NCBI GenBank assembly: GCA_963718575.1
Contig: OY970358.1
Location: 450,172 to 514,171 of the forward strand
Origin: an uncultured bacterium
Lineage (GTDB): Bacteria; Patescibacteriota; Minisyncoccia; UBA6257; 2-01-FULL-56-20
Reading direction: 5' to 3'
Length of the DNA: 64,000 nt
The notes below the pieces were generated by a model, which worked only from the letters and a program-made list of their open reading frames with translations, did not search any database and had not been told where the DNA came from. The position numbers were made by a program, and so were the translations under genes. Numbering within the stretch: the first letter of the stretch is position 1; each line of letters starts with the position of its first letter. Below, piece by piece: positions 31,752 through 55,458 of this stretch.

Positions 31752-32771
31752 TCACCGATAATCCGGAGGGGGCGGAGGGGGCATTGTTCTACCACGGCCT
31801 CTGTGGCGCCATTTCCCTGCCATTTTACGAGCGCCCCAGAAGATCAAGTAAAGCAGGGCTAAAATAAGGATGATAACGCCGAACGTCATGAATTTTTCGC
31901 TCCATCGAAGCCCCCAGAAACCATATCCAACATATCCAAGGAGCGTTCCCGGCGGCAGGATCGCGAGATCCAGCGTCCCTTGTCCGATGACGTTCGCACT
32001 ATCCGCTCCGTAGATCTGATAGAAGACCCGGTAGCTTCCCTGCGGCAGATATGTCGGCATTTCTGCCGTCACCGTCTTTGCTTCGAACGGCTGGACGGAA
32101 TCAAGTCCGTTGGTATTTTGCTCCGTTTCGAGGACGTTTCCCGTAAGATATTCCTGATATTGGAAGACCACCTTGCCCGGCGTGCCTGCAATGTTCCCGG
32201 TATTGTCCAGATCCATGGCAAAAAGGATCTTTCCGGGGAAGTGCATCCACCAAAGCGTATGGCCGACTTCGGTGTTCGTCATCGTGACGCGTTTGACCGA
32301 GAGATTCGCCATCTTGCCGCTCACCACCTGAAGGCTTACGTCGATCTGCGCACCGATCGTGATGCCGACCGTTCCCTTTGCCGGACCGCCGAGCGGCGAA
32401 ACGACCACCTGAATGTTCCCGGTATAACTTCCGAGCTTTGCGTCACTCGGAACGTTCACGCTTACCGTCATCGGCTCCTGCTGAGTTCCGGCAGGCATGA
32501 TGAACTGCGTCCCCCTGTCTATCAATATCCAGCTATCCGCTCCGGGAACATTGATCGTCACATTCGTCTGAAGGTCCTCGGTGGGATCGCTCCGCACAAG
32601 CGTGATCACCTGTTCGTAATGCGAATTTTGCGTAAGCTGCGCGTTCGTCACATATGGCGGCGTGATGCCGAATCCGTCCGCATGAGCTTGAAGAACCGGC
32701 GGCAATCCCGCCGCTGTCATTCCCGCCGCAGCGAGCAATACCGCAATAATGGAAAATATTTTTTTCATCAC
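31752..32771 (-). CDS. Membrane-anchored surface protein, CARDB/DUF916-DUF3324-like (same family as 47868, 51603, 52648)
   Basis: Signal peptide, beta-rich ectodomain (...NTGNIAGTPGKVVFQYQEYLTGNVL...GSYRVFYQIYGAD...), C-terminal TM helix and a short basic/Pro-rich tail. Confidence 0.45.
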   Translation of the reverse strand: MMKKIFSIIAVLLAAAGMTAAGLPPVLQAHADGFGITPPYVTNAQLTQNSHYEQVITLVRSDPTEDLQTNVTINVPGADSWILIDRGTQFIMPAGTQQEPMTVSVNVPSDAKLGSYTGNIQVVVSPLGGPAKGTVGITIGAQIDVSLQVVSGKMANLSVKRVTMTNTEVGHTLWWMHFPGKILFAMDLDNTGNIAGTPGKVVFQYQEYLTGNVLETEQNTNGLDSVQPFEAKTVTAEMPTYLPQGSYRVFYQIYGADSANVIGQGTLDLAILPPGTLLGYVGYGFWGLRWSEKFMTFGVIILILALLYLIFWGARKMAGKWRHRGRGRTMPPPPPPDYR

Positions 32772-43291: not shown

Positions 43292-45115
43292 TTATTCTTC
43301 ATTGAGAGCCTTATCCACATCTTCAATCTCTTTCTGAATGGTGGTCTCCGAAATGACGAGCGCGTTGCGTACCGCATCAAGCACGTTCTCCGGCTCAAGC
43401 TTTGCCTCCCCTTGCGCCTGCGCCGCCCCGCCTTCCATATGGCTGATCTTCTCATCCACCTCTTCGCGCAACGCTTCGAACACCACCTTGGTCCTTTCCC
43501 GCGCCTCATCGTTCTCGCGTTTCGCAAGCTGGAGCTGTAGGGTGTGGATTTTTTTCTTATAGAAGCCATAGGTGGCCATGCCGCTGATACATGCCAGCAA
43601 AAGGATGATCAGTATCCATCCAAACCGGTCGAGGAACGGCGCCGAGATGACATCAATGGAATATTTGTCGGTGGACGATGCGACCGCCCCCTGCGTCGTC
43701 ACCATAGTGGCGACGAGCGCATATTTTCCATCCGAGAGTCCGCCCTCCACCGCATACAACCAGTGTCCCGTCTGGTCGGCCACCATTTTCCCCTCAGAGA
43801 CCGTCTTCCCGTCGCTGTCATTGATATCCACGGTAACATTCGCGCCGCTATCGGCAGTGCCTTCGAGCACGATCGGCGAATGCTCAATCACTGTTTCCGG
43901 GAAATTCGTGATCTCCGGCATCCCCACGCCCGAGATGGAGAACTGGACGTTTTCGCTGGTATAATTCCCCGCCTTATCGAACGCCGATATCTGTACGATG
44001 TGATCTCCCGGAAGGAGCGGCGGAGCGGTGTACACCCCATTCTGCAGATCAGAAAGCGCGACGGTCGAGGAATTCACGCCGTCGAACGTTGCAACATAAT
44101 GATCGATGCCGGAGACGGTGTCGGTCGCGTTGAACATAAGGTTGGTCCGTCCGCTGATGCCCTCTCCCGGAGCGGCGGTCACCGTGAATGGCAATGGCGC
44201 CGAGGTGTCGATATTGACCTGGAAGTTCACCGGGTCGCTCCAGTCGCCGACGGAATCTTCGAACCGAGCATGGAAGTACCACGTGCCGTCGGCTACGTTT
44301 GAATATTGTTTCGAGGACAACAGGCCTGCCGATGTCCGCTTCGGATACGTATCGGGGTTCTGGTCGAATGCGACGCTTACCCCGGCGACATCCGGCGTGA
44401 GCGTCCATGTGAAGCTCGGGCTGTTGTTGTTATACCATTGCGTGGGGTCGGGATCCGTCGGGGACGAGATGGTGATCGTCACCGTGTACGGAGTTTGTGA
44501 TGAGGTATCGGCGGATGCCTGAGACTGCGCCGCGCTATTGTCCGCAGAGGCCGCAGGGGGATTCACTGCGGGAGCGGAAGCCGCCGCTCCGCCGATCGTA
44601 AAGGTCGCCCCGGTATTACTGCCGAGCACATTCGTCCCCTGCCCGTCCGCCGCAAGCACGGACGCGGAAGAGAATTTTATCGACGTCGATCCCGCGCTCA
44701 ATGCTTGAAATGTCACATCAACGACATCCCCAGCACTGCCCGTATACGCGTTATTGCTGCCGCCACTATAATCGACGGTTCCCGCAGTGTTCGAGAATGA
44801 AGGATTGCTGGTCCAAAGATTGAAAACTGAATTGTCCTTCGAAACGCTTTGCACGGCGAGCATCGTCGGATCAAAGCTCAACTCCCCGTCCGCGGCATTC
44901 ACTCCCACTCCTCCGCCGCTGTTCACCATCACGCTTACCGTGAACGTTCCGCCCGTGGCATAGGAACCGCTTGCGGGAGAAAGAGAAAGGCTCGCGCCCC
45001 CCGTCGACTGGGCGCGAACGATCGGGATGATCCCCGCGCTAACCGCAAGACAGCCGAGCGCGAAAACGAAGAGTGCCCGGCAGACAGCGACCGTTCGATG
45101 ATGGTGCTTTCTCAT
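43292..45115 (-). CDS. Cohesin-like domain surface protein with Ig-like repeats, C-terminal TM helix and coiled-coil tail
   Basis: After the signal peptide: SLSLSPASGSYATGGTFTVSVMVNSGGGVGVNAADGELSFDPTMLAVQSVSKDNSVFNLW...GDVVDVTFQALSAGSTSIKFSSASVLAADG follows the cohesin pattern (Gd.vtV.V...g..a.d..lsyDp..L.v.sv.k). C-terminal helix WILIILLLACISGMATYGF then a KRENDEARERTK... coiled coil. Confidence 0.5.
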   Translation of the reverse strand: MRKHHHRTVAVCRALFVFALGCLAVSAGIIPIVRAQSTGGASLSLSPASGSYATGGTFTVSVMVNSGGGVGVNAADGELSFDPTMLAVQSVSKDNSVFNLWTSNPSFSNTAGTVDYSGGSNNAYTGSAGDVVDVTFQALSAGSTSIKFSSASVLAADGQGTNVLGSNTGATFTIGGAAASAPAVNPPAASADNSAAQSQASADTSSQTPYTVTITISSPTDPDPTQWYNNNSPSFTWTLTPDVAGVSVAFDQNPDTYPKRTSAGLLSSKQYSNVADGTWYFHARFEDSVGDWSDPVNFQVNIDTSAPLPFTVTAAPGEGISGRTNLMFNATDTVSGIDHYVATFDGVNSSTVALSDLQNGVYTAPPLLPGDHIVQISAFDKAGNYTSENVQFSISGVGMPEITNFPETVIEHSPIVLEGTADSGANVTVDINDSDGKTVSEGKMVADQTGHWLYAVEGGLSDGKYALVATMVTTQGAVASSTDKYSIDVISAPFLDRFGWILIILLLACISGMATYGFYKKKIHTLQLQLAKRENDEARERTKVVFEALREEVDEKISHMEGGAAQAQGEAKLEPENVLDAVRNALVISETTIQKEIEDVDKALNEE

Positions 45116-45687
45116 TTCTTATTTTCATCCTGTCGGACCTCCTGAACGATAAGTTTCTTGCCCACTCCCGGATGTTTTGCCGGGAGGGTCACCACAAGAA
45201 CGCCGTTCCCGAGGGTCGCCGTGGCGGCACCGCCGTCGAACGATGCGGGAAGATATATCTTACGATACAGCGCTTTCCATTTTATCTCCTGCTTCACGTA
45301 TATTCCTTTTTCCGGAGGATTGCCGTCCTTCGGAACGGCAATCGCGGGAAGTTCCGGCCTCTTTTGGGTCGCCTCAACGACGAGCGTGTTTGATTCCTCG
45401 CTGATCGTTATATCAAAACCGCCGGCGGGAATCCCGCTCGCCTTCAGAAAAACGACCATCCGCGAATCGGATTGAAAAAGATCCACATCGATCGGATCCG
45501 TGCCATCGGGCGCCTTCTCCACCGCCGGCGTCATCACCTGCGCGGGATCATCCTTTTTTATGGAAACAGCCTTGTTGCCGGTGGCGGTATAGGTAACGCT
45601 CTTTGGCGGAGCGACCGCCTTCTCGTCCCCTCCGGCATCATCGTCACCCTGAAGCCTCATCGACAATTTTTCATAAAAGGAACTCAT
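45112..45687 (-). CDS. Hsp20/alpha-crystallin family small heat-shock protein
   Basis: Alpha-crystallin domain: VDLFQSDSRMVVFLKASGI...DITISEESNTLVVEA...GVLVVTLPK. Confidence 0.8.
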   Translation of the reverse strand: MSSFYEKLSMRLQGDDDAGGDEKAVAPPKSVTYTATGNKAVSIKKDDPAQVMTPAVEKAPDGTDPIDVDLFQSDSRMVVFLKASGIPAGGFDITISEESNTLVVEATQKRPELPAIAVPKDGNPPEKGIYVKQEIKWKALYRKIYLPASFDGGAATATLGNGVLVVTLPAKHPGVGKKLIVQEVRQDENKK

Positions 45688-45738
45688 GCGTATTATATAA
45701 GTCAGTATACCAAATCGAACTCGCCGTTTCCATGAAAA

Positions 45739-47427
45739 TTATCCCGTCCAGTGCGCAAGCATGATGCTCAAATCCGGAAGGTCGACTTTCCCATCGCCGT
45801 TCAGGTCCGCGGGAGCATAATCGGTGCCCCAGTGCGCAAGCATGATGGAAAAATCAACGAGGTTCACCTTTCCGTCGCCATTCAGATCCCCGATCTTCAG
45901 ATTTGCCGCCGCCTCTCCCACTCCGAGAAACGAAGGAGAGGAAAAACTGCTCTCGGCAAGCGACTGCACCAACGAGCGGGCCTTCACTTGATAGGTTCCC
46001 ATCGGAAGTCCGACGGTGGAAAGAGGATATGACCAGACGCCGTTCGGATCCGCGGTCGTCGTCGCCTCGAGCGGAACTCCTCCGTTCGCCTGACTCGTCA
46101 CGAGGATGTCAACCGTGGACGAAGGCTCGCCAAGCCCCGATACAAAGAATGGCTTCCCGAGCGCGACCGTGCTTGTGACAAAGCCGATCGAAGGAGGAAG
46201 AACGACGCCGGTAATATTGTTCGTTGTCCCCGAGATCAAGGTTATCGTCGTGGTGTAAAAAGAGATCGGGGTGGGGCTGCCGTCCGTCACCTCTATCGTA
46301 AATGAATAGGTTCCCTGCGGCAGCGAAGGGATGCTGACGGAAAAATTTCCATAGCTATCCGTCGATGCCGTGGTCGGAATCTGCGACCCGTCCTGAAGTA
46401 CGGCAATGGTCGCGTCGGGCATAGCGATCCCGCTGATCACAAGAGAGGGCGATGGCGGCAACGCCGCGTACGGCGCTCCACCCCCCCCGCCTCCTCCGCC
46501 GCTACTGCCGGACCCGGGAGCTCCTCCCCCGGTCCCTGTTCCCGTCGGGTTGCCGGCGTAAAAAGATATTATGTAATCCGTCGTGTTTTTATTGCCGGCA
46601 TAATCACTGCAACGCGCATAGAAGGTGTACGTGTTTCCCAAGACGATATTCCCGACAATGAACGTATGGAACAAGTCGGATGACTGGTCATCGGTAACAC
46701 CGGCCATCGCATCGTAAGAAACACCGGAGGACGTCGCATATCTACAGGTGGCATATATATTCGTATCAAAGGAGACGAGAACATTTCCGGCGTTGGAAGG
46801 AATCGTGCCCGACGGGAGGCCGTCCGAAAGCACCGGCACGCTTCCATTCGTATTCGCATCGACACCGACCGCCGGAATGATCGCCACCATCGCCGCTCCA
46901 TAGTCGAGCGGAGCGCTCATCGCAGTATAGGTATCGATGAATATCCGGTACGATGCCGGCGCGGAGGGATTGGTGATCTGATAGACGCCGGCCGGAGCGT
47001 TGGTGCCGAGCAAGACGCGCACATACGATCCTGCCGGGATGCCCGAGCCGGACGAGAGCGTGATCGTGATCGGACCCGTCACCGGCGACACCGCGACGCC
47101 GTCATCCGTCCCGTCGGGAATCGCCGCGAGCGTACGTTCGGTGGCGTCGGAAAGAGAGGAGCTTGTCGAAACGGCGAGATCCATATCGGTATAACTGAAA
47201 AGCGGGTCGATGGAGAAGGGGGTGTTCTCAAAAGAGATGACGATCTGTCCCGATGCCGGGATGCCGCTCGTCGTCCTGAAAACGATCGCGTGATTGACTG
47301 AGACCGACGGGCGGGAATCGCTTATCGTATCGCTTACATAGCTCAATTGTGTTTGCGCCTGCGCGGCGCGCGCGACCGGCATCCAAGCAAAAGAAAAAGC
47401 AGCCAAAAACAATAAGGCTGCACTCAT
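45739..47427 (-). CDS. Dockerin-containing surface protein; N-terminal module shared with the 49081/50406 paralogs, Gly-rich linker
   Basis: C-terminus DLNGDGKVNLVDFSIMLAHWGTDYAPADLNGDGKVDLPDLSIMLAHWTG is a type-I dockerin duplicate. N-terminal module LSYVSDTISDSRPSVSVNHAIVFRTTSG... parallels LTNVSDTLSDARPGYPANHTIVFTNPSS. Start taken at MSAALLFLAAF (47427); ORF track start 47580. Confidence 0.65.
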   Translation of the reverse strand: MSAALLFLAAFSFAWMPVARAAQAQTQLSYVSDTISDSRPSVSVNHAIVFRTTSGIPASGQIVISFENTPFSIDPLFSYTDMDLAVSTSSSLSDATERTLAAIPDGTDDGVAVSPVTGPITITLSSGSGIPAGSYVRVLLGTNAPAGVYQITNPSAPASYRIFIDTYTAMSAPLDYGAAMVAIIPAVGVDANTNGSVPVLSDGLPSGTIPSNAGNVLVSFDTNIYATCRYATSSGVSYDAMAGVTDDQSSDLFHTFIVGNIVLGNTYTFYARCSDYAGNKNTTDYIISFYAGNPTGTGTGGGAPGSGSSGGGGGGGGAPYAALPPSPSLVISGIAMPDATIAVLQDGSQIPTTASTDSYGNFSVSIPSLPQGTYSFTIEVTDGSPTPISFYTTTITLISGTTNNITGVVLPPSIGFVTSTVALGKPFFVSGLGEPSSTVDILVTSQANGGVPLEATTTADPNGVWSYPLSTVGLPMGTYQVKARSLVQSLAESSFSSPSFLGVGEAAANLKIGDLNGDGKVNLVDFSIMLAHWGTDYAPADLNGDGKVDLPDLSIMLAHWTG

Positions 47428-47479
47428 GATATAAATGGATCGATGCCTCACCCCTCTATTATATAGGATAGAGAAAAAA

Positions 47480-47860
47480 TTATTCTTCCGGAGGACCCTT
47501 CGGAGTGCGGCGGAAATATTGCCACTCGAAGTAGAAGTTGAGAAAAACAAGGATACCGATGATGGCGATCGCAATGGCAAGATACCAGATCACGGGAGAC
47601 TCCGCAGCGGTAGCCGCCCCGGTGCTGCTCGCGAACGCCGCCTCGCGCGCGGCGAGATCCGCCGCCTGCTGGTTCAGCTCGGTCTGTTGCTGTTGCAATT
47701 GCTCGTTCAGCGTATTGTAAGGGTTCGGCGCGATGCCGACCGCAATGCCGATTTGTGCCAACAACCTCGAAGGAGCCGCCACCCTTCCGCCGGAAAAAAG
47801 GAGGAGGGATGAAATGGCTCCGAGAAGCATTATCAGAAACCAGACCGTCCGTTTATTCAT
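47480..47860 (-). CDS. Small membrane protein with Gln-rich coiled-coil segment
   Basis: Two hydrophobic helices flank LNEQLQQQQTELNQQAADLAAREAAF. Confidence 0.4.
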   Translation of the reverse strand: MNKRTVWFLIMLLGAISSLLLFSGGRVAAPSRLLAQIGIAVGIAPNPYNTLNEQLQQQQTELNQQAADLAAREAAFASSTGAATAAESPVIWYLAIAIAIIGILVFLNFYFEWQYFRRTPKGPPEE

Positions 47861-47867
47861 GCGGCCT

Positions 47868-48992
47868 CTATCCAAAGAAGAACAAGAGGATGAGAAGGAA
47901 GACGAGGGCGAACACCGCCGTCGCGATCACAATAAAGACAAGCCGTGAGAGCGGGAGTCCTCCGCCCGAAAGCAATTTTTCCTCTTCTGATGCGGAAGAA
48001 CGAACTTCTTTGCCGGATTCGCCGATCATGGCACTCACGCGCTTGCGAACGTACGCCTTGACCGCCCAGACGAATATCAGGATGAAGAAAATGATGCTTC
48101 CGAGTACGGCGGCGATCGGAACGACCGGGATGACCCAGAACGTCGCCGATGCGGAAACGGTTTTGTTCTCCGTATCTCCATAATTCAATGTGGTGATGGC
48201 AGTGAATTGCCCGAACGCAAAACCATTGCCTCCCCACGATGCAGTGAATGATCGCTGGGTGCCGGGGAATATTGAGGCTGCCTGATCGTTTACGATCACC
48301 GTCCCCACCTTCTGACCGAACATATTAGTGATATCAATCGGGCCGCGCGGCTGGATCAGTACGTTGCCTTCGTTCGCGATCGATGCGGTAAACGTGACGC
48401 TCGGCGTCTGATAGAGCGATTTGTCGGTCGAGAACTCCTTGATCTCCGCCTGTTCCGTGGCATTACCCGCAATGCGAAGCTCGATGAGCGCGCCAACATT
48501 ATATCCAAGCCCCGATCCGTTGGATGTCGGCCTACTCGCGCCGGACGAAATGAAGATCGCGCCGTAATGTCCTCCGGGTCCGGCGTTCTTCGGAACCGTG
48601 ATCGTGAAAGGGACGGTGACGTTGCCTCCTGCCGGAATCGATATCTCCGTCTCGCCGAGCGAGACCCACGAGCTCAGGCCGTATTCCGGAACTGAAGAAG
48701 TGGTGAAGATCGGTTCGCCGGATCCCTGCATTCCCGAGATATCCTGGACGCCGACCGAGAATTGATGGGCAACGGTATCCGGATTGCTGATGGTTATCGA
48801 GGTCGAAAACTGATCGCCGGGGTTCACGGTCTGCTCAAAAAGGGCGGGCGCCACTTTTATGTTCAGTCCGATTCCGGCAGTCTGCGCGCGAGAAACACCC
48901 CCGAAAAGGACAACTCCCGCCAAGAGAACAAAGCCGGCTCCGGCCGCTAAAGCGATTCGACGCCCCACCCCCCTTTTTGATGTATCCATCAT
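47868..48992 (-). CDS. Membrane-anchored surface protein, CARDB/DUF916-DUF3324-like (family A, member 1)
   Basis: Signal peptide; PALFEQTVNPGDQFSTSITISNPDTVAHQFSVGV (the YFxLxVxPGxxxxxxIxVxN pattern); second beta domain; C-terminal TM helix; cytoplasmic tail. Confidence 0.5.
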   Translation of the reverse strand: MMDTSKRGVGRRIALAAGAGFVLLAGVVLFGGVSRAQTAGIGLNIKVAPALFEQTVNPGDQFSTSITISNPDTVAHQFSVGVQDISGMQGSGEPIFTTSSVPEYGLSSWVSLGETEISIPAGGNVTVPFTITVPKNAGPGGHYGAIFISSGASRPTSNGSGLGYNVGALIELRIAGNATEQAEIKEFSTDKSLYQTPSVTFTASIANEGNVLIQPRGPIDITNMFGQKVGTVIVNDQAASIFPGTQRSFTASWGGNGFAFGQFTAITTLNYGDTENKTVSASATFWVIPVVPIAAVLGSIIFFILIFVWAVKAYVRKRVSAMIGESGKEVRSSASEEEKLLSGGGLPLSRLVFIVIATAVFALVFLLILLFFFG

Positions 48993-49080
48993 TGTTTCGG
49001 CCTGGTTAATAGTTTGAGTCTAGCATATCAGTGCCACCCCGCAAATATCATTTTTCAAGAAGGACGTCCGAGATAATTCC

Positions 49081-50220
49081 CTAGAAGATCGGCGTCGCCA
49101 CGTAAATCTGGTTGTTCACGTAGTCGTTCGCGGCTGCCTGCAGAGGACCGATCTCGATGCGCGTCGTTACCTTCGCGGCGCCAACGTTCTGCGTTGTTCC
49201 ATCCGCAGGGCCAGTCCATCCGAAGACGATGAGCGTGGAGGTCGGATTGAAGCTTCCCGCATAGAGCGGAGTGCTGCTTCCAAAGAACGGACCTCCCACT
49301 GCCGTACTGCTCGTATCGTCGCTCGTGATGCCGACATGTCCGTAGGTATTCGGATTGTTGATGACATTCGTAGGCGATGTCCACGGGGAAGGCGTTGATG
49401 TCGCGTTGGCATTGGAAAACAAGTGGATGATATTGCCTTTGTTGCTCGTAAGATCCTGATCCTCATGCACGGTGACGGCAAATCCGTTCGACGCATTCGT
49501 CGTCACGTTGAGCTGAAGGCCCAATTCGTTATGGGTGGCCGGGGCGATCGTGCCGAACGGAAGGCTTGAGGAGGTATCCGTGCCGGTCGTCGTTGCATTA
49601 TTCCCAAGCGTGGTAGAGGTCGAGAGCGGAGAGATCGTAAAGGTGAAGGTGGTCGCAATGGCGGCGGTGACGTTGACGCCGTTTATGATAGCAATTCTCG
49701 TATCCGCCGAGCTCGGCTGTGTGCCTCCGATGCGGATGATGTATGAACCGGTGCTCGTCGGGTTCGTGATCGTATTGCCCAGGATCTTGAGGGATATCGT
49801 CCCCGAAGCGATCGTGTTGCTCGGGCAAACGGTAAAGGTGAGCACATTATATGAGGTCGTCGCCATCTGAACATTGTTTCCGCTGCCGGGGCAGGTCGAT
49901 GTGGCGATCGTCATCCCCGTCGAGGTCACGTTGGCGATCGAGGTTGAAGTGACACTGCCGAATGCGCTCGTATTGGGATCGAACGTGTACGTGATGCTCT
50001 GACCGGCGGTCGTCGATGAAGGGTTAGTGAACACGATCGTGTGGTTCGCGGGATATCCCGGACGGGCATCGCTCAGCGTATCGCTTACATTCGTCAAACT
50101 TGCCGCGTGAGCAAGCTGAAGGATGCGGAATCCGACCGTCCATGCGAGGAGGCTTATGACCAACCCGATGGTGATTGCGACTATAATATCTTTTTTTACT
50201 ATCTGATGTTCGGTAAACAT
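49081..50220 (-). CDS. Surface protein family B, member 1 (N-terminal signal anchor, Thr/Ser/Asn-rich beta-rich ectodomain, conserved C-terminal ...NDYVNNQIYVATPIF)
   Basis: 379 aa. Tandem paralog of 50406..51536 (~90% nucleotide identity with identical blocks). The C-terminal tail motif is shared with 53670..55022. Confidence 0.5.
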   Translation of the reverse strand: MFTEHQIVKKDIIVAITIGLVISLLAWTVGFRILQLAHAASLTNVSDTLSDARPGYPANHTIVFTNPSSTTAGQSITYTFDPNTSAFGSVTSTSIANVTSTGMTIATSTCPGSGNNVQMATTSYNVLTFTVCPSNTIASGTISLKILGNTITNPTSTGSYIIRIGGTQPSSADTRIAIINGVNVTAAIATTFTFTISPLSTSTTLGNNATTTGTDTSSSLPFGTIAPATHNELGLQLNVTTNASNGFAVTVHEDQDLTSNKGNIIHLFSNANATSTPSPWTSPTNVINNPNTYGHVGITSDDTSSTAVGGPFFGSSTPLYAGSFNPTSTLIVFGWTGPADGTTQNVGAAKVTTRIEIGPLQAAANDYVNNQIYVATPIF

Positions 50221-50405
50221 TTATCTAATCTGAGTTATTTATTTGTAGGCAACTAAAAGTATGGCGACCTTTTTAATTAATTTTTATTATTTGGAAATCA
50301 TTATGATTTCTCGTTGAAATAATTGTACCATAACAAGTTGTAAACATTTCAAGGCCACTTATCCACAGGCAGTCAAGAGAACCGTCCACAGGATAGTTCG
50401 GATTA

Positions 50406-51536
50406 CTAGAACACCGGCGTCGCCACGTAAATGAGATTGTTCTGATAGTCGTTCGCGGCTGCCTGCAGAGGACCGATCTCGATGCGCACCGCTACTTTCG
50501 CGGCGCCAACGTTCTGCGTTACGCCATCCGCCGGACCGTTCCATCCAAACACCATCAGTGTCGATGTCGGATTGAAGCTTCCCGCATAGAGCGGAGTGCT
50601 GGTGCCGAAATTCTTTCCTCCGACAAGCGTACTGCTCGTATCGTCGCTCGTGATGCCGACATGTCCGTAGGTATTCGGATTGTTGATGACATTCGTAGGC
50701 GATGTCCACGGGGAAGGCGTTGATGTCGCGTTGGCATTGGAAAACAAGTGGATGATATTGCCTTTGTTGCTCGTAAGATCCTGATCCTCATGCACGGTGA
50801 CGGCAAATCCGTTCGACGCATTCGTCGTCACGTTGAGCTGAAGGCCCAATTCGTTATGGGTGGCCGGGGCGATCGTGCCGAACGGAAGGCTTGAGGAGGT
50901 ATCCGTGCCGGTCGTCGTTGCATTATTCCCAAGCGTGGTAGAGGTCGAGAGCGGAGAGATCGTAAAGGTGAAGGTGGTCGCAATGGCGGCGGTGACGTTG
51001 ACGCCGTTTAATATCACCACGCGGGTGTCAGCGGAATTTGCCTGCGTGCCTCCGATGCGGATGATGTATGAACCGGTGCTCGTCGGGTTCGTGATCGTAT
51101 TGCCCAGGATCTTGAGGGATATCGTCCCCGAAGAGATCGTGTTGCACGCGGTAAAGGTGAGCACATTATATGAGGTCGTCGCCATGGAAGCGGTGTTGAT
51201 CGCTCCTGCACAGGTTGCGACGACGGACATGCCGGTCGATGTGACGTTCGCGAGAACGGTTGAAGTGACACTGCCGAATGCGCTCGTATTGGGATCGAAC
51301 GTGTACGTGATGCTCTGACCGGCGGTCGTCGATGAAGGGTTAGTGAACACGATCGTGTGGTTCGCGGGATATCCCGGACGGGCATCGCTCAGCGTATCGC
51401 TTACATTCGTCAAACTTGCCGCGTGAGCAAGCTGAAGGATGCGGAATCCGACCGTCCATGCGAGGAGGCTTATGACCAACCCGATGGTGAGCGAGGCAGC
51501 GAGATCTTTTCTAAATGTCCTGTACTGAGAAAACAT
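50406..51536 (-). CDS. Surface protein family B, member 2 (tandem paralog)
   Basis: 376 aa, ends ...NDYQNNLIYVATPVF. Confidence 0.5.
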   Translation of the reverse strand: MFSQYRTFRKDLAASLTIGLVISLLAWTVGFRILQLAHAASLTNVSDTLSDARPGYPANHTIVFTNPSSTTAGQSITYTFDPNTSAFGSVTSTVLANVTSTGMSVVATCAGAINTASMATTSYNVLTFTACNTISSGTISLKILGNTITNPTSTGSYIIRIGGTQANSADTRVVILNGVNVTAAIATTFTFTISPLSTSTTLGNNATTTGTDTSSSLPFGTIAPATHNELGLQLNVTTNASNGFAVTVHEDQDLTSNKGNIIHLFSNANATSTPSPWTSPTNVINNPNTYGHVGITSDDTSSTLVGGKNFGTSTPLYAGSFNPTSTLMVFGWNGPADGVTQNVGAAKVAVRIEIGPLQAAANDYQNNLIYVATPVF

Positions 51537-51602
51537 TTTTTTGATTTTTATCGAGAGCCTCCTTGTAAGAGTATTTTAAAACGGACCATCTGGTTTTGTA
51601 AA

Positions 51603-52655
51603 CTATCGGTCGTGTGGATTCCTGAGATCAAGCGTCCCGTCATCATGGCGGGAAAGCGATGCTTTTCTTTTTTCCTTCGGAACATGCCCGTATCTTTGCA
51701 ATTCGTGCGCAAGCATGTTCCTCACGGCACGCCTTAAGAGATACATACAGGCCATGGCGGCGATAAGGATGCCGAATCCCACCTCTAATAACTGATCAAT
51801 GGGCAGAACCCAGAATCCGATCGTCCGGGTGATGCTTTTTGTTCCATTTTCACCATACCCGAGGCTGAGAACCGCAGTATAAGGCCCGATATCCAGCAGA
51901 CTTGGCTGGCCCTGCCACTCGACATCGAATTCCCGGCTGCTTGACGGGAGGACATACCCAAGCGTCCCCGTCCCGTTGATGGGAATCTCCCCGCGTTCCT
52001 TACCGAAGGCATTGTATATCTGGATCATGCCCGACGGACGGATATGTACATTGCCGGTATTCTGCACATTGACCGAAAAATGCACATCGGGCGTCTGATA
52101 GGAGGGATGGTCGGTCGAAAAATCATGTATCTGTGCCGACTCGATGATATTTCCCGAGACCCGGACGAAGATGAGCGCGGAAATAAAACTGCTCACGCCG
52201 ACCTGGGATTGTCCGGATGGTCCGCTTAACCCTCCTGTCCCGATGAGGATCGCGCCGTAGTGTCCGCCGGGAGATGCGTCGGCGGGCACGGAGATCGAAA
52301 AGGGAACGTCCGCCGTGCCGCCCGCCGGCACATTGACCGATGAACCCGAGACGGTGATCCAATTGGCGAGCGCATCGTCATCACCTGCGAGCGCTGAGAG
52401 CGGAATGAAACTTCCGTGTCCCAGATCGTCCGACGCTTCGAATCCCATGGCTATCGCATGGACCTGCAGGTCGGTCGCATTCGTATTCACCACCCTGATC
52501 GAACTCGACCATATATCCCCGGGATCCACATTCAATTCAAAAAACGGGGGGGTGATCGTGAGCGATGTCGAATCCGCCGTTTGCGCGCGGGATGTCATCG
52601 GCAACAATATCGCCATGGCGACGGCAATGATAAAAAGTTTGCTGATCTTATTCAT
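51603..52655 (-). CDS. Membrane-anchored surface protein, CARDB/DUF916-DUF3324-like (family A, member 2)
   Basis: Signal peptide; PPFFELNVDPGDIWSSSIRVVNTNATDLQVHAIAM; GNVHIRPSGMIQIYNAFG...GPYTAVLSLGYG; C-terminal TM helix and tail. Confidence 0.5.
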   Translation of the reverse strand: MNKISKLFIIAVAMAILLPMTSRAQTADSTSLTITPPFFELNVDPGDIWSSSIRVVNTNATDLQVHAIAMGFEASDDLGHGSFIPLSALAGDDDALANWITVSGSSVNVPAGGTADVPFSISVPADASPGGHYGAILIGTGGLSGPSGQSQVGVSSFISALIFVRVSGNIIESAQIHDFSTDHPSYQTPDVHFSVNVQNTGNVHIRPSGMIQIYNAFGKERGEIPINGTGTLGYVLPSSSREFDVEWQGQPSLLDIGPYTAVLSLGYGENGTKSITRTIGFWVLPIDQLLEVGFGILIAAMACMYLLRRAVRNMLAHELQRYGHVPKEKRKASLSRHDDGTLDLRNPHDR

Positions 52656-53670
52656 GGGGATGGCGAAGGTCTATCGTTGTTTCGAAATTTTTCCTCTTGA
52701 GAAGATTTTCGATCGCGCGGCGGCGGCGATGATGGCGCTTCTCATATTCATGATGGAGCCAGATCGCGAACGCTATTGTCAGAATGAACAACGTCGTGAA
52801 TAGCACGAGTATTTTTTTCCACGGGAGCACCCAGACAAGCGCGGTGTCCTGGAGGTCGCTGTTCTCTCCGCCGTAAGAAAGATCAAGCACCGCCCTGTAC
52901 TGGCCGAGACCCTCCTGCCCCTGCCATGGCGCGGTGAACGATTGTTTCGCGCCGGGCGCAAGTGGAATATTTTCCGGGTTCGCGTCGATCGATCCAAGTT
53001 CGTGTCCAGACCGGTCGTAGAACGTCATCTGGCCGGAAGGGGTGGAGGAAACCTGCCCGTTATTCTCTATTATATAGGTGAACACTACCGGAAACCCCGT
53101 ATAAAAGCTCTTTACTGAGGAAAAAGCGTCGATACGCAGGCTCGCGGTAAGGCCGGATGCGACGGACATATCAATGAGCGTCTGCGGAGCTCCGTTCAGA
53201 TGTTGTTCCGCATCGTCGCGCGTGCCGCCCTCGACGAACGCAATCACCGCATGATAATCCCCCGCCGCGGCGTACGGGCTGATCTGTATCTCGACGGGAG
53301 TGGTGGTCGATTGTCCGGGCTGCAGCAATATGGCTCCGCGCGAGACACCGATCCACGCCGCGAGCAATGTGGCGCGGTCGTCCTGTGAGGGATTTGCAAA
53401 CACCTGCGTACCGCTCGCGGTGAGCTCGCACACCGTGGCAAAGATATTCTCCTGGACGTTCGAAGTATTCGTGATGGTGAGCGAGTAATTCAAAATATCG
53501 TTCGGCACACCGCTGCCGTCGATCACTGCGGGGAGCACGGTGACGGTGTCGGTGTCGGCGTGCGCGACGGGGGGCGTATGCAAGCCGAAGAAAAAAAGAA
53601 TCGCCGCGGCGACGACGGCCGCCGCCATCGTTCCTTCTGTTATTTTTTCATAAAAAAAAGTTTTTTTCAT
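52648..53670 (-). CDS. Membrane-anchored surface protein, CARDB/DUF916-DUF3324-like (family A, member 3)
   Basis: Signal anchor; LNYSLTITNTSNVQENIFATV; GQMTFYDRSGHELGSI...GQYRAVLDLSYGG; C-terminal TM helix plus His/Arg-rich tail. Confidence 0.5.
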   Translation of the reverse strand: MKKTFFYEKITEGTMAAAVVAAAILFFFGLHTPPVAHADTDTVTVLPAVIDGSGVPNDILNYSLTITNTSNVQENIFATVCELTASGTQVFANPSQDDRATLLAAWIGVSRGAILLQPGQSTTTPVEIQISPYAAAGDYHAVIAFVEGGTRDDAEQHLNGAPQTLIDMSVASGLTASLRIDAFSSVKSFYTGFPVVFTYIIENNGQVSSTPSGQMTFYDRSGHELGSIDANPENIPLAPGAKQSFTAPWQGQEGLGQYRAVLDLSYGGENSDLQDTALVWVLPWKKILVLFTTLFILTIAFAIWLHHEYEKRHHRRRRAIENLLKRKNFETTIDLRHPHE

Positions 53671-55022
53671 CAGAATGAAGGGGCGACGACGTAAATAATA
53701 TTGTTCTGATATGCACCCGTGCCCTGTGTCGCCCCGATCTGTGCGCGATAGACCATATCCATCGTACTGCTTACCGCAGGAGACCCGCCATATCCGACCT
53801 CCGCGATCGTTGAAGTAAGCGCCGCGTAACTGTCATCGGCCGCGAAACGCACCGACCCTCCGGACAGCACCGGACTGCCGGCGTGATAGCCGTAACATCC
53901 CGCCGACGTGACGGTACATCCGCTCGACCATGCGACCGGACTCGCATTCGTTCCCGCAACGCCGGGCAGCTGATCGCCGCGCGCATCAGTAAGCTGCTGA
54001 TCCTGTTCGGCATATATCTCATACCCTTCCGCTGCATCCGTCGTGATCAAGAGCCGCTGCGCGGCGATCGTGCTCGTCCCGATAATAAGCGACCCGAAGG
54101 GAATGCCGGTAGCCGTCGTCGAAACGTTCGTCATGACGCCGTTCGTGCTCGTGCTCTGCGGAAGCCCGCTCACGGAAAAGGTCAGTGTCGCTCCCTGCAT
54201 GACCAGGCTCGGATAACTCGACGTGGCGCCGAGCGGGATCACCGTGCTATCGGCGGCAAGGATCGGACGGAAGAAGTAAGCGGTCCCGTTCGATGCGCCG
54301 GATGCCATGATGGTAAATTCATATTCCGTCGTCGCGCCGGCATTCTGCGTTGATGTCGACGTGCTTATGCCCGAAGTATTGTGCGTGCCGCATCCGTTGC
54401 CGACCCCTCCGCTGCACGCGTCGCTTGTCGAGAGCACCGCGGTCGAGATGACCTGATTGTCATTCCCGCCGGTGCTCGTTGCATAGCACCACGTCGAACT
54501 CGCGGTGCAAGCGCTCCCCGCTTCCGCCACAAGCCCGGGGGAAACCGTAAAATCTGACGACTGCGCAAATTGTAAACGAAACTTCAGGTTCGCGCTCCCC
54601 GTGATGCCGCTCATCTCTTTTATATTGAGCCGCAGTTTTATCACCTGCGCGTTCGCGATGTTCGAAGGCGCGACATTCTCCGCGGCAAGCGAACTGGTCG
54701 GCGTCTCGTCGTTCGCATCGCCGTACCATCGCCACGTCTGCGATACCGGTGCGAAGTCGCTCTCGTTCACCGGGCCGGTGTCGGCAGCGAAATCCGTACT
54801 TGCCGCGTTGCCGTTCATCATCGGCGCACCGCCCGAGATCACCTGGAAGTCAGTGGATGAGGCGTTCCCGCCGAACATCCCGACGAAACCATCCTGCACG
54901 ATGAAATCCGTGCTTGTCGCGGTGTCCGCAAATGAAAACACGAACGGTCCCGCGAAGAATGCGATGAGCGTTCCCGCGACCGCGGCGATGATCCATTTAT
55001 GGGGTGGTTTGATTTTGGCCAT
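53670..55022 (-). CDS. Surface protein family B, member 3 (ends ...GAYQNNIIYVVAPSF)
   Basis: 450 aa, N-terminal signal anchor, repeated ASSTDF units. The C-terminal tail matches the family-B motif. Confidence 0.5.
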   Translation of the reverse strand: MAKIKPPHKWIIAAVAGTLIAFFAGPFVFSFADTATSTDFIVQDGFVGMFGGNASSTDFQVISGGAPMMNGNAASTDFAADTGPVNESDFAPVSQTWRWYGDANDETPTSSLAAENVAPSNIANAQVIKLRLNIKEMSGITGSANLKFRLQFAQSSDFTVSPGLVAEAGSACTASSTWCYATSTGGNDNQVISTAVLSTSDACSGGVGNGCGTHNTSGISTSTSTQNAGATTEYEFTIMASGASNGTAYFFRPILAADSTVIPLGATSSYPSLVMQGATLTFSVSGLPQSTSTNGVMTNVSTTATGIPFGSLIIGTSTIAAQRLLITTDAAEGYEIYAEQDQQLTDARGDQLPGVAGTNASPVAWSSGCTVTSAGCYGYHAGSPVLSGGSVRFAADDSYAALTSTIAEVGYGGSPAVSSTMDMVYRAQIGATQGTGAYQNNIIYVVAPSF

Positions 55023-55458
55023 TGTTGATCGTCGTTACGATCGCGCTGTCGGAGCGGAGTGTTTCCCAGAAAAGCACCTGCGATATGGGGATCATCATTT
55101 CGTCGGTAGGACCATGGATCTCACTGCCGAGCTTAACCAACTTCAATGGTGACTGGTTCTGCGCGCTCAGATCCTGCCCGGGCTGTGAGAGTTCCAAATA
55201 ATAAACATCCCTCAAGGTGATGACCCCCTCGAACGGGACATCCCAAAAATGGCCGAAGTACACCTGATTGTTGGTGAGAAAGACCGCCTTCCATTGCGTT
55301 GCGCCATTCACCAGCCACCATCCGACAAGGACGATAATAATAGTGACCACCAGCCAGAGAAATATCTTTCCGCGGCGCGGACGGTATCTTTTATGCGATG
55401 CCCCGTCTGCCGATCCCTGATATTGTTCTTCCCCTTTTAAATTTATTGTTTCTCTCAT
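54997..55458 (-). CDS. Hypothetical single-pass membrane protein (153 aa)
   Basis: Basic N-terminus, TM helix IFLWLVVTIIIVLVGWWLV, small extracytoplasmic domain. Confidence 0.4.
   Translation of the reverse strand: MRETINLKGEEQYQGSADGASHKRYRPRRGKIFLWLVVTIIIVLVGWWLVNGATQWKAVFLTNNQVYFGHFWDVPFEGVITLRDVYYLELSQPGQDLSAQNQSPLKLVKLGSEIHGPTDEMMIPISQVLFWETLRSDSAIVTTINNGQNQTTP

What the first reader, a model, noticed from the sequence alone, without database searches (positions are those of the whole stretch)
47868..55022. Interleaved A/B paralog array resembling a Csc/WxL-type surface-complex locus
Six consecutive genes alternate between two families. Family A (47868, 51603, 52648; plus 31752 elsewhere) has a signal peptide, a beta-sandwich with the PxFExxVxPGD...IxVxN pattern, a second beta domain, a C-terminal TM helix and a short charged tail. 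Family B (49081, 50406, 53670) has an N-terminal anchor, a Thr/Ser/Asn-rich beta-rich body and a strictly conserved C-terminal ...Y(V/Q)NN(Q/L/I)IYV(A/V)(T/A)P(I/V/S)F. The arrangement mirrors Gram-positive csc clusters, where a membrane-anchored DUF916 protein is paired with WxL proteins that dock non-covalently via a C-terminal motif. Here the tail motif differs, and it may be a new docking signal.
Basis: inference. Interest (0 to 1): 0.75.

Follow-up and report, generated by a model that had tools for sequence, protein, structure and literature searches.

The report
WxL-like surface-protein cassette in Patescibacteria
This stretch of an ultrasmall (Paceibacteria/CPR) bacterium's genome encodes a conserved set of cell-surface proteins that is a very distant, tryptophan-less cousin of the WxL/Csc surface complexes of lactic acid bacteria, so it is a candidate for how these bacteria display proteins on, and perhaps attach through, their surface.

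Summary
Six consecutive minus-strand genes (47868-55022) belong to two paralog families. The order is B-A-A-B-B-A, not strict alternation.

Family A is a genuine distant homolog of WxL-interacting proteins (WxLIP, DUF916/DUF3324):
- Profile-profile E is 1.3e-15 against canonical WxLIPs.
- The profile hits the E. faecium WxLIP crystal structures at E 3e-7.
- Those structures (9i25_C, 9i1y) are also the best Foldseek matches of the AlphaFold model.

Family B has no database annotation. Its about 190-residue C-terminal domain (Bc) ends in Y-x3-L-x-Y-[VI]-A-T-P-x-[FY]-COOH.
- Bc has 804 cluster representatives and lies at the extreme C-terminus in 141 of 147 examined.
- It comes in small and large forms.
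- It sits beside A genes in 61-70 of 79 Patescibacteria loci.

Three ordered motifs line up with the FDFG, first WxL and second WxL motifs of canonical WxL domains. The statistics are weak (hhalign P about 0.005; reciprocal HMM enrichment), and the solved WxL chain was not among the top structural matches.

Best reading (about 0.65): a CPR version of the WxL/WxLIP surface complex. The conserved cassette also includes a small membrane protein, a dockerin protein and a cohesin membrane protein.

Main rival: a donor-strand-exchange fibre. No paper in the searched library describes this cassette, so I class it as a new variant of a known kind.

The parts
53670..55022 (-). B3, the 'large-type' B protein (450 aa): signal peptide, family-specific N-terminal region, C-terminal Bc domain (about residues 260-450).
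   Evidence: Orthologs at this position are 320-2388 aa with variable, mostly Pfam-dark N-terminal regions and a Bc domain at the end.
52648..53670 (-). A3, a WxLIP-like protein (340 aa): signal peptide, two Ig-like domains, one TM helix, basic cytoplasmic tail ending in ...IDLRHPHE.
   Evidence: It forms a position-specific orthogroup upstream of small B (47 loci).
51603..52655 (-). A2, a WxLIP-like protein (350 aa).
   Evidence: Pfam PF06030 subthreshold hit covering profile positions 18-118 of 121. Orthogroup upstream of small B in 49 loci.
50406..51536 (-). B2, a 'small-type' B protein (376 aa): signal peptide, Bn Ig-like domain, Bc domain.
   Evidence: Tandem duplicate of B1 with mosaic tracts of 100% DNA identity.
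49081..50220 (-). B1, a 'small-type' B protein (379 aa): helix 5-34, Bn domain about 43-180, Bc domain about 186-379.
   Evidence: AlphaFold model with pLDDT 90.6. Fold searches. 664 homologs found.
49084..49122 (-). C-terminal tail of B1 (YVNNQIYVATPIF-COOH). The equivalent tails are 50409-50447 in B2 and 53673-53711 in B3.
   Evidence: It forms the last strand (residues 371-377) of the Bc domain in the model.
47868..48992 (-). A1, a WxLIP-like protein (374 aa) with two C-terminal TM helices (290-324 and 348-373).
   Evidence: AlphaFold model. Best PDB matches are 9i25_C and 9i1y, E 7e-13. Orthogroup always downstream of small B (60/63), with two TM helices in 55/63.
47480..47875 (-). Small (131 aa) membrane protein with a Gln-rich central segment. 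A syntenic member of the cassette.
   Evidence: tblastn finds it between the A1-type and Bn-only genes in 26 loci. It is called as a 126-aa gene in a public assembly. No Pfam hit.
45739..47580 (-). Bn-only protein: signal peptide, Bn domain with the same mature N-terminal motif (L-x-x-VSDT[LI]SDS), Big_13 domain, C-terminal dockerin. The true start is probably the internal Met (MSAALLF...).
   Evidence: (Dockerin_1 33.1 bits against a cutoff of 22.9). Bn-only ORFs lie downstream of the A1-type gene in most loci; tblastn finds them in 71 loci.
43292..45115 (-). Cohesin-domain protein with Big_13 domains, a C-terminal TM helix and a cytoplasmic coiled-coil tail. A possible membrane dock for the dockerin protein.
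   Evidence: Cohesin 37.6 bits against a cutoff of 24.1. Syntenic in 35 loci. Binding to the dockerin protein is inferred only.
45112..45687 (-). Hsp20-family protein lying between the dockerin and cohesin genes. Membership of the system is uncertain.
   Evidence: Pfam HSP20. Syntenic in 19 loci.
31752..32771 (-). A4, a divergent WxLIP-like paralog in a second, related cassette. That cassette comprises 32887-34689 (600-aa protein), A4, and 30586-31722 (DUF4215-Big_6-dockerin protein).
   Evidence: The same trio sits directly next to a B1-type gene in 9 loci, e.g. L063 and L068.

Best explanation
The region is the core of a conserved Patescibacteria cell-surface cassette that works like, and probably descends from the same ancestor as, the WxL/Csc clusters of Firmicutes.

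Three membrane-anchored WxLIP-like proteins (A1-A3) each have two Ig-like ectodomains followed by one or two TM helices. They are proposed to hold secreted B proteins non-covalently at the cell surface.

Every B protein ends in the same ~190-residue beta-sandwich (Bc). Its last strand is the conserved tail Y-x3-L-x-Y-[VI]-A-T-P-x-[FY]-COOH. Bc is the likely counterpart of the WxL domain, with F/Y replacing the two tryptophans.

By analogy with E. faecium WxLIP bound to long WxL (PDB 9i25; AlphaFold models in PMC10599100), a loop or hairpin of the first A domain would insert as a strand into the Bc sandwich.

The outward-facing parts would carry the function, presumably adhesion to a host cell or substrate or formation of a surface coat. 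These parts are the Bn Ig-like domain of the abundant 'small' B1/B2 and the variable N-terminal region of the 'large' B3.

What is shown:
- the paralogy;
- A-WxLIP homology;
- the C-terminal position and conservation of Bc;
- the conserved synteny.

What is inferred:
- Bc-WxL homology;
- A-B binding and its strand-insertion mode;
- surface display;
- the biological role.
For: Family A is a WxLIP homolog:
- PF06030 (WxLIP_PGBD) is hit by 32/38 family members, best E 8.6e-9.
- The family profile hits EfmWxLIP1 chains 9i25_C and 9i1y_A at E 3e-7.
- hhalign of 170 A sequences against 8 canonical WxLIPs gives Prob 98.6%, E 1.3e-15 over 240 columns spanning both domains.
- Domain 1 alone gives E 8.6e-12. 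Domain 2 gives P 0.001 at the correct place.
- The A1 model's top Foldseek PDB hits are 9i25_C, 9i1y_A and 9i1y_B (E 7e-13 to 8e-12, 259-266 columns).
- The architecture (signal peptide, two Ig domains, TM helix) matches that described for WxLIP (PMC10599100).

The cassette is conserved:
- 233 relatives of B were found in one-genome-per-species GTDB contigs. The best 79 loci are all from Patescibacteria MAGs apart from one labelled Gammaproteobacteria.
- 61/79 loci carry strong A genes next to B, and 9 more carry an A4-type gene.
- The gene order large-B, A3, A2, small-B x1-3, A1, Bn-only protein recurs.

Bc resembles WxL in its organisation:
- It is always C-terminal (141/147).
- It exists as small (median 375 aa) and large (up to 2388 aa) proteins, as WxL does (PMC9772566).

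Bc resembles WxL in sequence, weakly:
- hhalign gives P 0.005-0.007 with three versions of the Bc profile (not independent of one another). It aligns LPFGT with FDFG and NG[FY]xVxV..Q.L....G with GWxLxVSQ..F.D..G.
- With relaxed settings the alignment is colinear over 165-172 columns and puts the tail on the second WxL motif. Most controls give P 0.08-0.8.
- The canonical WxL HMM ranks Bc proteins at 13 of the top 20 among 2518 CPR ORFs.
- Bc HMMs rank WxL proteins first among 142 Firmicute-locus ORFs.
- A canonical WxL protein of B. anthracis pXO1 already has Y for W in the second motif (YESKLTYSIVTGP).
- Hydrophobic positions that PMC9772566 lists as conserved around the motifs (W1+4, W2-2) are hydrophobic in Bc; this can be read directly from the sequences.
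Against: - No B sequence hits Pfam WxL (PF13731) even at E <= 1: 0 of 80. There is no PDB sequence hit either.
- The hhalign P-values are marginal. One negative control reached 0.011 (A vs reversed WxLIP, caused by a TM helix).
- The Bc tail is two residues shorter between Y and P than the WxL motif and is pinned to the exact C-terminus. Canonical WxL has 0-16 trailing residues.
- The conserved NQIDKxxxYFDLK motif of WxLIP is missing from family A; an 11-residue gap takes its place in the alignment.
- There are three WxLIP paralogs per cassette, against one in the commonest Firmicute cluster.
- No LPXTG protein or sortase motif was found in the window.
- No direct evidence for A-B binding was obtained.
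Confidence: 0.65

Rival explanations
1. The cassette builds a pilus-like fibre by donor-strand exchange.

- Small B (Bn+Bc) would be the polymerising shaft subunit. Its conserved mature N-terminal strand (LTxVSDTLSD) would complete the Bc or Bn sandwich of the neighbouring subunit.
- Large B (Bc only) would be the tip.
- The Bn-only dockerin protein would be the terminator, docked on the cohesin membrane protein.
- The WxLIP-like A proteins would act as membrane-bound chaperones or assembly platforms, analogous to PapD-type chaperones or TapA.
For: - There is a Foldseek match to the TasA fibre 8aur_A, E 2e-3.
- After WxLIP, the A1 model's matches include chaperone-usher chaperones CfaA, CsuC and EcpB, with TM-scores of 0.46-0.57 normalised to the target.
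- The three classes of Bn/Bc proteins (Bc only, Bn+Bc, Bn only) fit a tip/shaft/base logic.
- The shaft-like gene is present in 1-3 tandem copies.
- The strictly terminal aromatic residue recalls the C-terminal recognition of pilins by their chaperones (established knowledge of chaperone-usher systems).
- The N-terminal motif is found only in Bn-bearing proteins: 58 of 59 matches.
Against: - The monomer model is confident and self-complete (pLDDT 90.6). The N-terminal strand 43-49 has pLDDT about 96.
- The fold matches have low Z or TM scores and are typical of generic Ig-like or jelly-roll domains.
- No usher, SipW-type peptidase or sortase was seen in the window. This was only partly searched.
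- Nothing tested here shows polymerisation.
- This rival is compatible with the WxLIP homology of A, because WxLIP itself is reported to donate a strand to WxL. It therefore partly overlaps with the main explanation.
Confidence: 0.2
2. A and B are co-regulated but physically independent envelope proteins, for example components of a surface layer or coat. The Bc tail would be only a structural core strand, and the resemblance of Bc to WxL would be convergent or due to chance.
For: - The Bc-WxL statistics are weak.
- There are no Pfam or PDB sequence hits.
- The B proteins are Ser/Thr/Asn-rich (about 37% in B1) with few charged residues, like many surface-coat proteins.
- No A-B gene fusions were found among 147 representatives.
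Against: - Gene order is fixed, with three position-specific A orthogroups flanking the B genes across many candidate phyla.
- In Firmicutes, full-length WxLIP is tightly associated with WxL partners and binds them (PMC10599100; PDB 9i25).
- Three motifs coincide in order with the WxL motifs, and the HMM enrichment is reciprocal.
Confidence: 0.12

Closest known systems
WxL / Csc cell-surface clusters of Firmicutes (L. plantarum cscA-D; E. faecium WxL loci A-C; E. faecalis Elr; Listeria lmo0549-0552): WxLIP (DUF916+DUF3324+TM) plus small and large WxL proteins
   Same: - A membrane-anchored protein with two Ig-like domains, homologous to WxLIP.
- Partner proteins that come as a small form and as a large form with variable N-terminal regions.
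- A shared domain that is always at the C-terminus.
- Three ordered sequence motifs in that domain: FG, G-aromatic-x-hydrophobic, and Y-x3-L-x-aromatic...P.
- Tight gene clustering.
- All proteins are secreted or membrane-anchored.
   Different: - The host is Patescibacteria, not Firmicutes. About 91% of known WxL sequences are from Firmicutes (PMC9772566).
- Both tryptophans are replaced by F or Y.
- There is no Pfam WxL match.
- The tail is two residues shorter and pinned to the exact C-terminus, with a terminal aromatic residue.
- There are three distinct WxLIP paralogs per cassette, one of them with two TM helices.
- The NQIDKxxxYFDLK motif is absent.
- Small B carries an extra N-terminal Ig-like domain (Bn).
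- There is no LPXTG protein. Instead the cassette has a small TM protein, a Bn-dockerin protein and a cohesin-TM protein.
Donor-strand-exchange fibres: TasA/TapA of Bacillus, TLP-1a/b pond fibrils (CryoSeek), chaperone-usher pili
   Same: - The Bc domain gives weak structural matches to TLP-1b and TasA.
- The A model resembles two-domain periplasmic chaperones.
- The subunits carry conserved N- and C-terminal strands.
- The subunit classes suggest a tip/shaft/base arrangement.
   Different: - No evidence of polymerisation was obtained.
- The monomer model is self-complete.
- No usher or SipW was seen.
- Sequence identity in the structural alignments is 11-12%.
Cohesin-dockerin surface anchoring (cellulosome-type)
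   Same: The extended cassette pairs a dockerin-ending protein (45739-47580) with a cohesin-bearing membrane protein (43292-45115). Both score above the Pfam thresholds.
   Different: No glycoside hydrolases are present. The pair appears to serve as an anchoring device within a surface cassette. Binding was not tested.

Membership tests
WxLIP (WxL-interacting protein; DUF916/PF06030 + DUF3324/PF11797 + TM helix) | First domain homologous to the DUF916 / WxLIP_PGBD domain | tested here: met
   - The window copies are below the Pfam cutoff (20.5 and 19.8 bits against 27.3).
- 32/38 family members hit PF06030, best E 8.6e-9.
- The family profile hits EfmWxLIP1 at E 3e-7.
- hhalign of domain 1 gives Prob 97.5%, E 8.6e-12.
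WxLIP | Second domain homologous to the DUF3324 / WxLIP_HBD domain, directly after the first | tested here: inconclusive
   - No PF11797 hit.
- hhalign of domain 2 gives P 0.001 at the correct region, 208-277 of the Listeria WxLIP.
- The full-length alignment covers both domains.
- The Foldseek alignment to 9i25_C spans 259 columns.
WxLIP | Signal peptide and C-terminal transmembrane helix | tested here: met
   The A1 model has an N-terminal hydrophobic helix and C-terminal helices. A TM heuristic was applied to the orthologs. No dedicated signal-peptide predictor was available.
WxLIP | Conserved NQIDKxxxYFDLK sequence near the N-terminus of the first domain (PMC10599100) | tested here: not met
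   The hhalign alignment shows an 11-residue gap in family A where NQIDK lies. Only the YFDL-like 'LFEQ/FFEL' followed by P-G-D remains.
WxLIP | Fold match to a solved WxLIP structure | tested here: met
   9i25_C, 9i1y_A and 9i1y_B are ranks 1-3 in Foldseek against the PDB: E 7e-13 to 8e-12, target-normalised TM-score 0.46-0.50.
WxL domain (PF13731) | Match to the Pfam WxL model | tested here: not met
   0 of 80 B homologs and none of the window copies hit PF13731 at E <= 1. A canonical control scored E 1e-38.
WxL domain | Two Trp-x-Leu motifs | tested here: not met
   The equivalent positions read G-F-A-V or G-Y-E-I (motif 1) and I-Y-V-A (motif 2). Some annotated WxL proteins also have Y at motif 2, e.g. 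B. anthracis pXO1.
WxL domain | Domain always at the C-terminus; both small and large forms exist | tested here: met
   141/147 representatives end with Bc. Lengths run from 154 to 2388 aa, with a small class (median 375 aa) and a large class.
WxL domain | Encoded next to a WxLIP gene | tested here: met
   61/79 loci have strong A genes and 9 more have an A4-type gene.
WxL domain | Detectable profile-profile homology to canonical WxL | tested here: inconclusive
   hhalign P is 0.005-0.007 against 0.08-0.8 for most controls, with one control at 0.011. HMM rank enrichment is reciprocal but individual E-values are non-significant.
WxL domain | Fold match to solved WxL (9i25_A), with the two motif strands adjacent, antiparallel and forming a buried platform | tested here: inconclusive
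WxL domain | Non-covalent binding to peptidoglycan | not testable with these tools
   Requires biochemistry.
TasA/TLP-1-type donor-strand-exchange fibre subunits | Fold similarity to a fibre subunit | tested here: inconclusive
TasA/TLP-1-type donor-strand-exchange fibre subunits | Intermolecular strand donation and polymerisation | not testable with these tools
   No multimer prediction was available.
Cohesin-dockerin pair | Pfam Cohesin and Dockerin_1 domains above the gathering thresholds in neighbouring genes | tested here: met
   Dockerin_1 scores 33.1 bits (cutoff 22.9) in 45739-47580. Cohesin scores 37.6 bits (cutoff 24.1) in 43292-45115. Whether they bind each other was not tested.

The most novel reading that the evidence does not exclude
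The cassette encodes a previously unrecognised class of surface fibre of monoderm ultrasmall bacteria.

- A variable tip protein (large B).
- A shaft of small-B subunits joined by strand exchange between Bn and Bc.
- A Bn-dockerin base plugged into a cohesin membrane anchor.
- Three WxLIP-like membrane proteins acting as dedicated strand-donating chaperones or assembly platforms.

If so, WxL/WxLIP systems in general would be evolutionary relatives of donor-strand-complementation machines. Some of the unidentified fibrils seen in filtered fresh water could come from such cassettes.
Probability: 0.15. Interest if true: 0.85.

Novelty: new variant of a known kind. Interest (0 to 1): 0.6.

Why it matters
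Patescibacteria (the candidate phyla radiation) are a large part of bacterial diversity. Most appear to live attached to other cells, yet apart from type IV pili little is known about the proteins on their surface.

- This cassette is conserved in gene order across Paceibacteria, Lloyd-, Kaiser-, Nomura-, Harrison- and Sungbacteria MAGs. It has hundreds of sequence clusters and a hypervariable 'large' member. That makes it a concrete, testable candidate for surface display or host attachment.
- It extends the WxLIP/WxL module, so far treated as a speciality of lactic acid bacteria, Listeria and Bacillus, to a very distant monoderm lineage.
- If the B-WxL link is confirmed, the name-giving tryptophans are dispensable, and current Pfam models miss a whole branch of the family.
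- Full texts holding WxL together with Patescibacteria, or DUF916 together with CPR, were sought in the held library. Each pair occurred in one paper and neither is relevant.

Tried and rejected
1. Pfam and NCBIfam on the B proteins and on 80 homologs gave nothing.
2. A PDB sequence search with the B profile gave nothing.
4. The afdb50 library, which would contain many predicted WxL structures, was not installed.
5. A metagenome scan meant to diversify the canonical WxL alignment returned a single locus. I used plasmid records instead.
6. I tested whether the C-terminal domain shared by 32887-34689 and 38840-41386 (tails ...NTFVAVRSAPSTW and ...NTFIGVENPLPWP) is another WxL-like module. hhalign gave P about 0.05 against WxL and Bc. 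One database protein carries this domain together with Bc. I therefore rejected it as a Bc substitute.
7. N-glycosylation sequons are not enriched in B beyond what its composition predicts.
8. The 'peptidoglycan-binding domain' proteins reported as highly expressed in cultured Paceibacteria (PMC10936435) turned out to be of the PG_binding_1 type (PDB 1lbu), not WxLIP_PGBD. They give no expression evidence for this cassette.
9. No A-B fusion proteins were found.
10. No LPXTG or sortase signature was found in the window.
11. The promoter and terminator scans did not exceed the shuffled expectation.

Full report
**Organism and setting.** The window comes from a Candidatus Paceibacterota (Parcubacteria, candidate phyla radiation) genome. 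Identical proteins occur on a public contig of 881,652 bp, and close homologs are named 'Candidatus Paceibacterota bacterium' or 'Minisyncoccia bacterium'. The part of the window from about 30 kb to 58 kb is almost entirely minus-strand genes for secreted or membrane proteins with Ig-like, fibronectin-III, cohesin and dockerin domains.

**Observation.** Six adjacent minus-strand ORFs occupy 47868-55022.
- BLASTP groups them into family A: A1 47868-48992, A2 51603-52655, A3 52648-53670. Pairwise identity is 27-34%, E 1e-26 to 3e-56.
- Family B comprises B1 49081-50220 and B2 50406-51536, which are 88% identical. B3 53670-55022 shares only the C-terminal ~190 residues with them (31-32%, E 1e-11 to 1e-13).
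- A4 (31752-32771) is a weak relative of A (E about 3e-5).
- In the direction of transcription the order is B3-A3-A2-B2-B1-A1. The families are interleaved, not alternating.
- Gene spacing is tight. B3/A3, A3/A2 and A1/next gene overlap, and the other gaps are 66, 185 and 88 nt, which suggests an operon. Consensus promoter and terminator scans did not exceed shuffled expectation.
- The conserved B tail is real. In 80 homologs Y-13, Y-7 and P-3 are invariant and F-1 is present in 79/80.

**Family A is a WxLIP homolog.** The window copies give only subthreshold hits to Pfam PF06030, WxLIP_PGBD/DUF916 (E 5e-4 and 8.5e-4). Stronger evidence comes from four directions:
- 32 of 38 family members hit that model, best E 8.6e-9.
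- A profile of the family hits the PDB chains of Enterococcus faecium WxLIP1 (9i25_C, 9i1y_A) at E 3e-7.
- A profile of 170 A sequences collected from related loci aligns with eight canonical WxLIPs from Listeria, Bacillus, Lactococcus, Lactiplantibacillus, Melissococcus and Enterococcus. HHalign probability is 98.6%, E 1.3e-15, over 240 columns that span both Ig-like domains.
- The first domain alone gives E 8.6e-12. The second gives P 0.001 at the right place.

The AlphaFold model of A1 (pLDDT 83) has an N-terminal helix, two beta-sandwich domains and C-terminal helices. Its three best Foldseek matches in the PDB are the WxLIP crystal structures (E 7e-13 to 8e-12). Further down the list are two-domain pilus chaperones CfaA, CsuC and EcpB.

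Differences from canonical WxLIP:
- the NQIDKxxxYFDLK motif is deleted;
- there is no PF11797 sequence hit;
- A1 has a second TM helix.

**Family B.** None of 80 B homologs hits any informative Pfam family, including WxL PF13731. The family profile finds no PDB sequence.

The AlphaFold model of B1 is confident (pLDDT 90.6). It has a helix at 5-34, an Ig-like N-terminal domain (Bn, about 43-180) and a larger beta domain (Bc, about 186-379). The last strand of Bc (371-377) is the conserved tail. The helix ends in a conserved A-x-A, so a cleavable signal peptide is likely; this is an inference.

- Foldseek gave generic two-Ig adhesins, BslA and a weak TasA-fibre match.
- The solved long WxL chain 9i25_A was not in either list.

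**Distribution and synteny.**
- A pattern scan of one genome per GTDB species found 233 stretches encoding B relatives. The best 79 loci are all from Patescibacteria MAGs (Paceibacterota, Lloyd-, Kaiser-, Nomura-, Harrison- and Sungbacteria, and others), apart from one bin labelled Gammaproteobacteria.
- Scoring every ORF of these loci with HMMs for A, Bn and Bc revealed a recurrent cassette. In order it comprises a large protein (320-2388 aa) ending in Bc, an A3-type gene, an A2-type gene, one to three small Bn+Bc genes, an A1-type gene, and a Bn-only protein.
- 61 of 79 loci have strong A genes. Nine more have an A4-type gene about 1.4 kb upstream. Nine have none; some of these are extra B copies in MAGs that also own the full cassette.
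- The three A types are position-specific orthogroups. A1-type lies downstream of small B in 60/63 cases and has two C-terminal TM helices in 55/63.
- tblastn shows that further genes are syntenic: the small 131-aa membrane protein (47480-47875; 26 loci), the Bn-Big-dockerin protein (45739-47580; 71 loci), an Hsp20 (19 loci) and the cohesin-TM protein (43292-45115; 35 loci).
- A full HMMER scan of 1.84 billion cluster representatives with a Bc profile found 804 proteins at E <= 1e-3 and 421 at E <= 1e-10.
- Bc ends exactly at the C-terminus in 141 of 147 representatives.
- The tail pattern Y-x3-[LIVMF]-x-[YFW]-[VIL]-x-[TVI]-P-x-[FYW]-COOH occurs in 138/147 representatives and 115/127 Bc ORFs, and in 0/2391 other ORFs of the loci.
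- 121 of the 147 are small Bn+Bc proteins (median 375 aa). The rest include proteins up to 2228 aa whose N-terminal parts are almost all Pfam-dark.

**Is Bc a WxL domain?** I fetched canonical WxL clusters from plasmid records and checked them with Pfam.

Their second motif reads Y/F-x3-[LIV]-x-W-x-L-x3-P, followed by 0-16 residues. A B. anthracis pXO1 protein annotated as WxL has Y instead of W, YESKLTYSIVTGP. The family-wide Bc tail, D-Y-x-x-T-L-T-Y-[VI]-A-T-P-x-[FY], is the same pattern, two residues shorter and fixed at the terminus.

HHalign results:
- Bc profiles against 20 diverse WxL sequences give P 0.0069, 0.005 and 0.0073 for three versions of the Bc profile. These versions are not independent.
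- Each run aligns the same 51 columns: (L/I)PFGT with FDFG, and NG[FY]x[VI]x[VA].Q.Q.L....G with GWxLxVSQ..F.D..G.
- With a permissive threshold the alignment is colinear over 165-172 columns and places the Bc tail on the second WxL motif.
- Controls (reversed profiles, Bn, WxLIP, A) gave P 0.08-0.8. The exception is one control at 0.011, caused by a TM helix.

HMM ranking results:
- The canonical WxL HMM, run without filters on all 2518 ORFs of the CPR loci, put Bc proteins at 13 of the top 20 ranks. Bc proteins make up 5% of the ORFs. Each hit is individually non-significant.
- Those alignments fall on the same two motif regions.
- In the reverse direction, Bc HMMs ranked WxL proteins first among 142 ORFs of the Firmicute loci. 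For the B3-type HMM the top three were all WxL.
- WxL itself is very divergent: a small-WxL HMM finds the solved long WxL 9i25_A only at E 0.085.

Together with the genomic partnership with true WxLIP homologs, the C-terminal position and the small/large dichotomy, I put the probability that Bc is a divergent WxL domain at about 0.7. It fails the literal family definition, because it has no Trp-x-Leu and no Pfam match.

**Mechanism.** In Firmicutes, WxLIP is reported to bind WxL by inserting a hairpin strand that completes the WxL sandwich. Support for this binding:
- the AlphaFold models in PMC10599100;
- the title of PDB entry 9i25, 'WxLIP ... bound to long WxL';
- binding of a DUF916 protein to SwpA and LwpA measured by Galloway-Pena et al., as cited in PMC9772566.

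The A1 model has a low-confidence Gly-rich loop (residues 153-163, pLDDT below 50). It aligns with the charged loop of WxLIP1, so it is a candidate for the same role; this is an inference.

I therefore propose that A1-A3 hold B proteins at the membrane surface through their Bc domains. Bn, or the variable N-terminal regions, would point outward. The conserved dockerin-cohesin pair downstream would give a second anchoring route for the Bn-only protein (inference).

The main rival is a donor-strand-exchange fibre with tip, shaft and base subunits, with the A proteins as chaperones. It is suggested by four observations:
- the TLP-1b and TasA matches;
- the chaperone-like matches of A;
- the three Bn/Bc architectures;
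- the strictly terminal aromatic residue.

It could not be tested without multimer prediction.

**Novelty.** WxL clusters are described almost only from Firmicutes (PMC9772566, PMC10599100). I searched the held library for full texts that contain WxL together with Patescibacteria, or DUF916 together with CPR. Each pair occurred in a single paper, and neither paper is relevant. The finding is best described as a new, strongly diverged variant of a known kind of system, with extra components.

Noticed in passing
window 49081-51536: B1 and B2 are mosaic at the DNA level. Tracts of 100% identity (about 235 nt and about 380 nt) alternate with clearly diverged patches in the Bn domain and in two Bc loops. 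This suggests gene conversion between the tandem copies, with a few surface patches kept variable.
   Followed up: partly
window 30586-41386: There is a second, related cassette:
- two large S/T-rich proteins (38840-41386 and 32887-34689) sharing a ~320-aa C-terminal domain with tails ...NTFIGVENPLPWP and ...NTFVAVRSAPSTW;
- a four-FN3 protein (37330-38814);
- a MacB/FtsX-type ABC transporter (36008-37363 ATPase, 34781-35989 permease);
- the WxLIP-like A4 (31752-32771);
- a DUF4215-Big_6-dockerin protein (30586-31722).

In nine other genomes (e.g. L063, L068) the trio 'large protein - A4 - dockerin protein' sits directly upstream of a B1-type gene.
   Followed up: partly
window 43292-47580: A dockerin-ending protein (45739-47580) and a cohesin-bearing membrane protein (43292-45115) are conserved neighbours of the cassette, with an Hsp20 gene between them. 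This is a cohesin-dockerin pair with no carbohydrate-active enzymes nearby.
   Followed up: partly
window 52648-53670 and 51603-52655 (C-terminal codons); orthologs in L003-L035: The cytoplasmic tails of A3-type proteins, and of some A2-type proteins, carry a short conserved motif [VI][IV][DN]L[KR] near the C-terminus (IDLRHPHE, LDLRNPHDR, VINLKNGS and similar). This hints at a cytoplasmic partner.
   Followed up: partly
window 47868-47960 (A1 C-terminus); A1-type orthologs: A1-type proteins have a conserved second TM helix (...SRLxFxxxAxxxFxxxFLxxLFFFFG). The chain should therefore re-cross the membrane and end outside the cell, unlike canonical single-helix WxLIPs.
   Followed up: partly
window 27340-29170: The FtsH gene appears split by a frameshift near 28540-28737. 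The 465-aa ORF ends in Arg-rich out-of-frame sequence, and the protease domain (HEGGH) continues in another frame as a 209-aa ORF. This could be an assembly error, a pseudogene or programmed frameshifting.
   Followed up: no
L089 (ENA contig_32193) against window 47081-52220: A second public assembly of a near-identical strain differs by several single-base indels in the A2/B2 region, and B2 is called there as two shorter genes. This is probably due to long-read indel errors or strain variation.
   Followed up: partly
window 54997-55458: A 153-aa protein with one TM helix lies directly upstream of B3 and overlaps its start. It is conserved at the same position in 10 related loci and has no Pfam hit.
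   Followed up: partly
L001 6180-6788 and 3748-5292 (Enterococcus gilvus plasmid): Two proteins of a canonical WxL cluster that NCBI does not annotate as WxL, and that miss Pfam WxL, end in ...ISYQLYNTADAQ and ...INYQLYNTPNAD and have RTWSVKASV as a first motif. Tyr-for-Trp variants of the second motif therefore also exist in Firmicutes and escape current models.
   Followed up: partly
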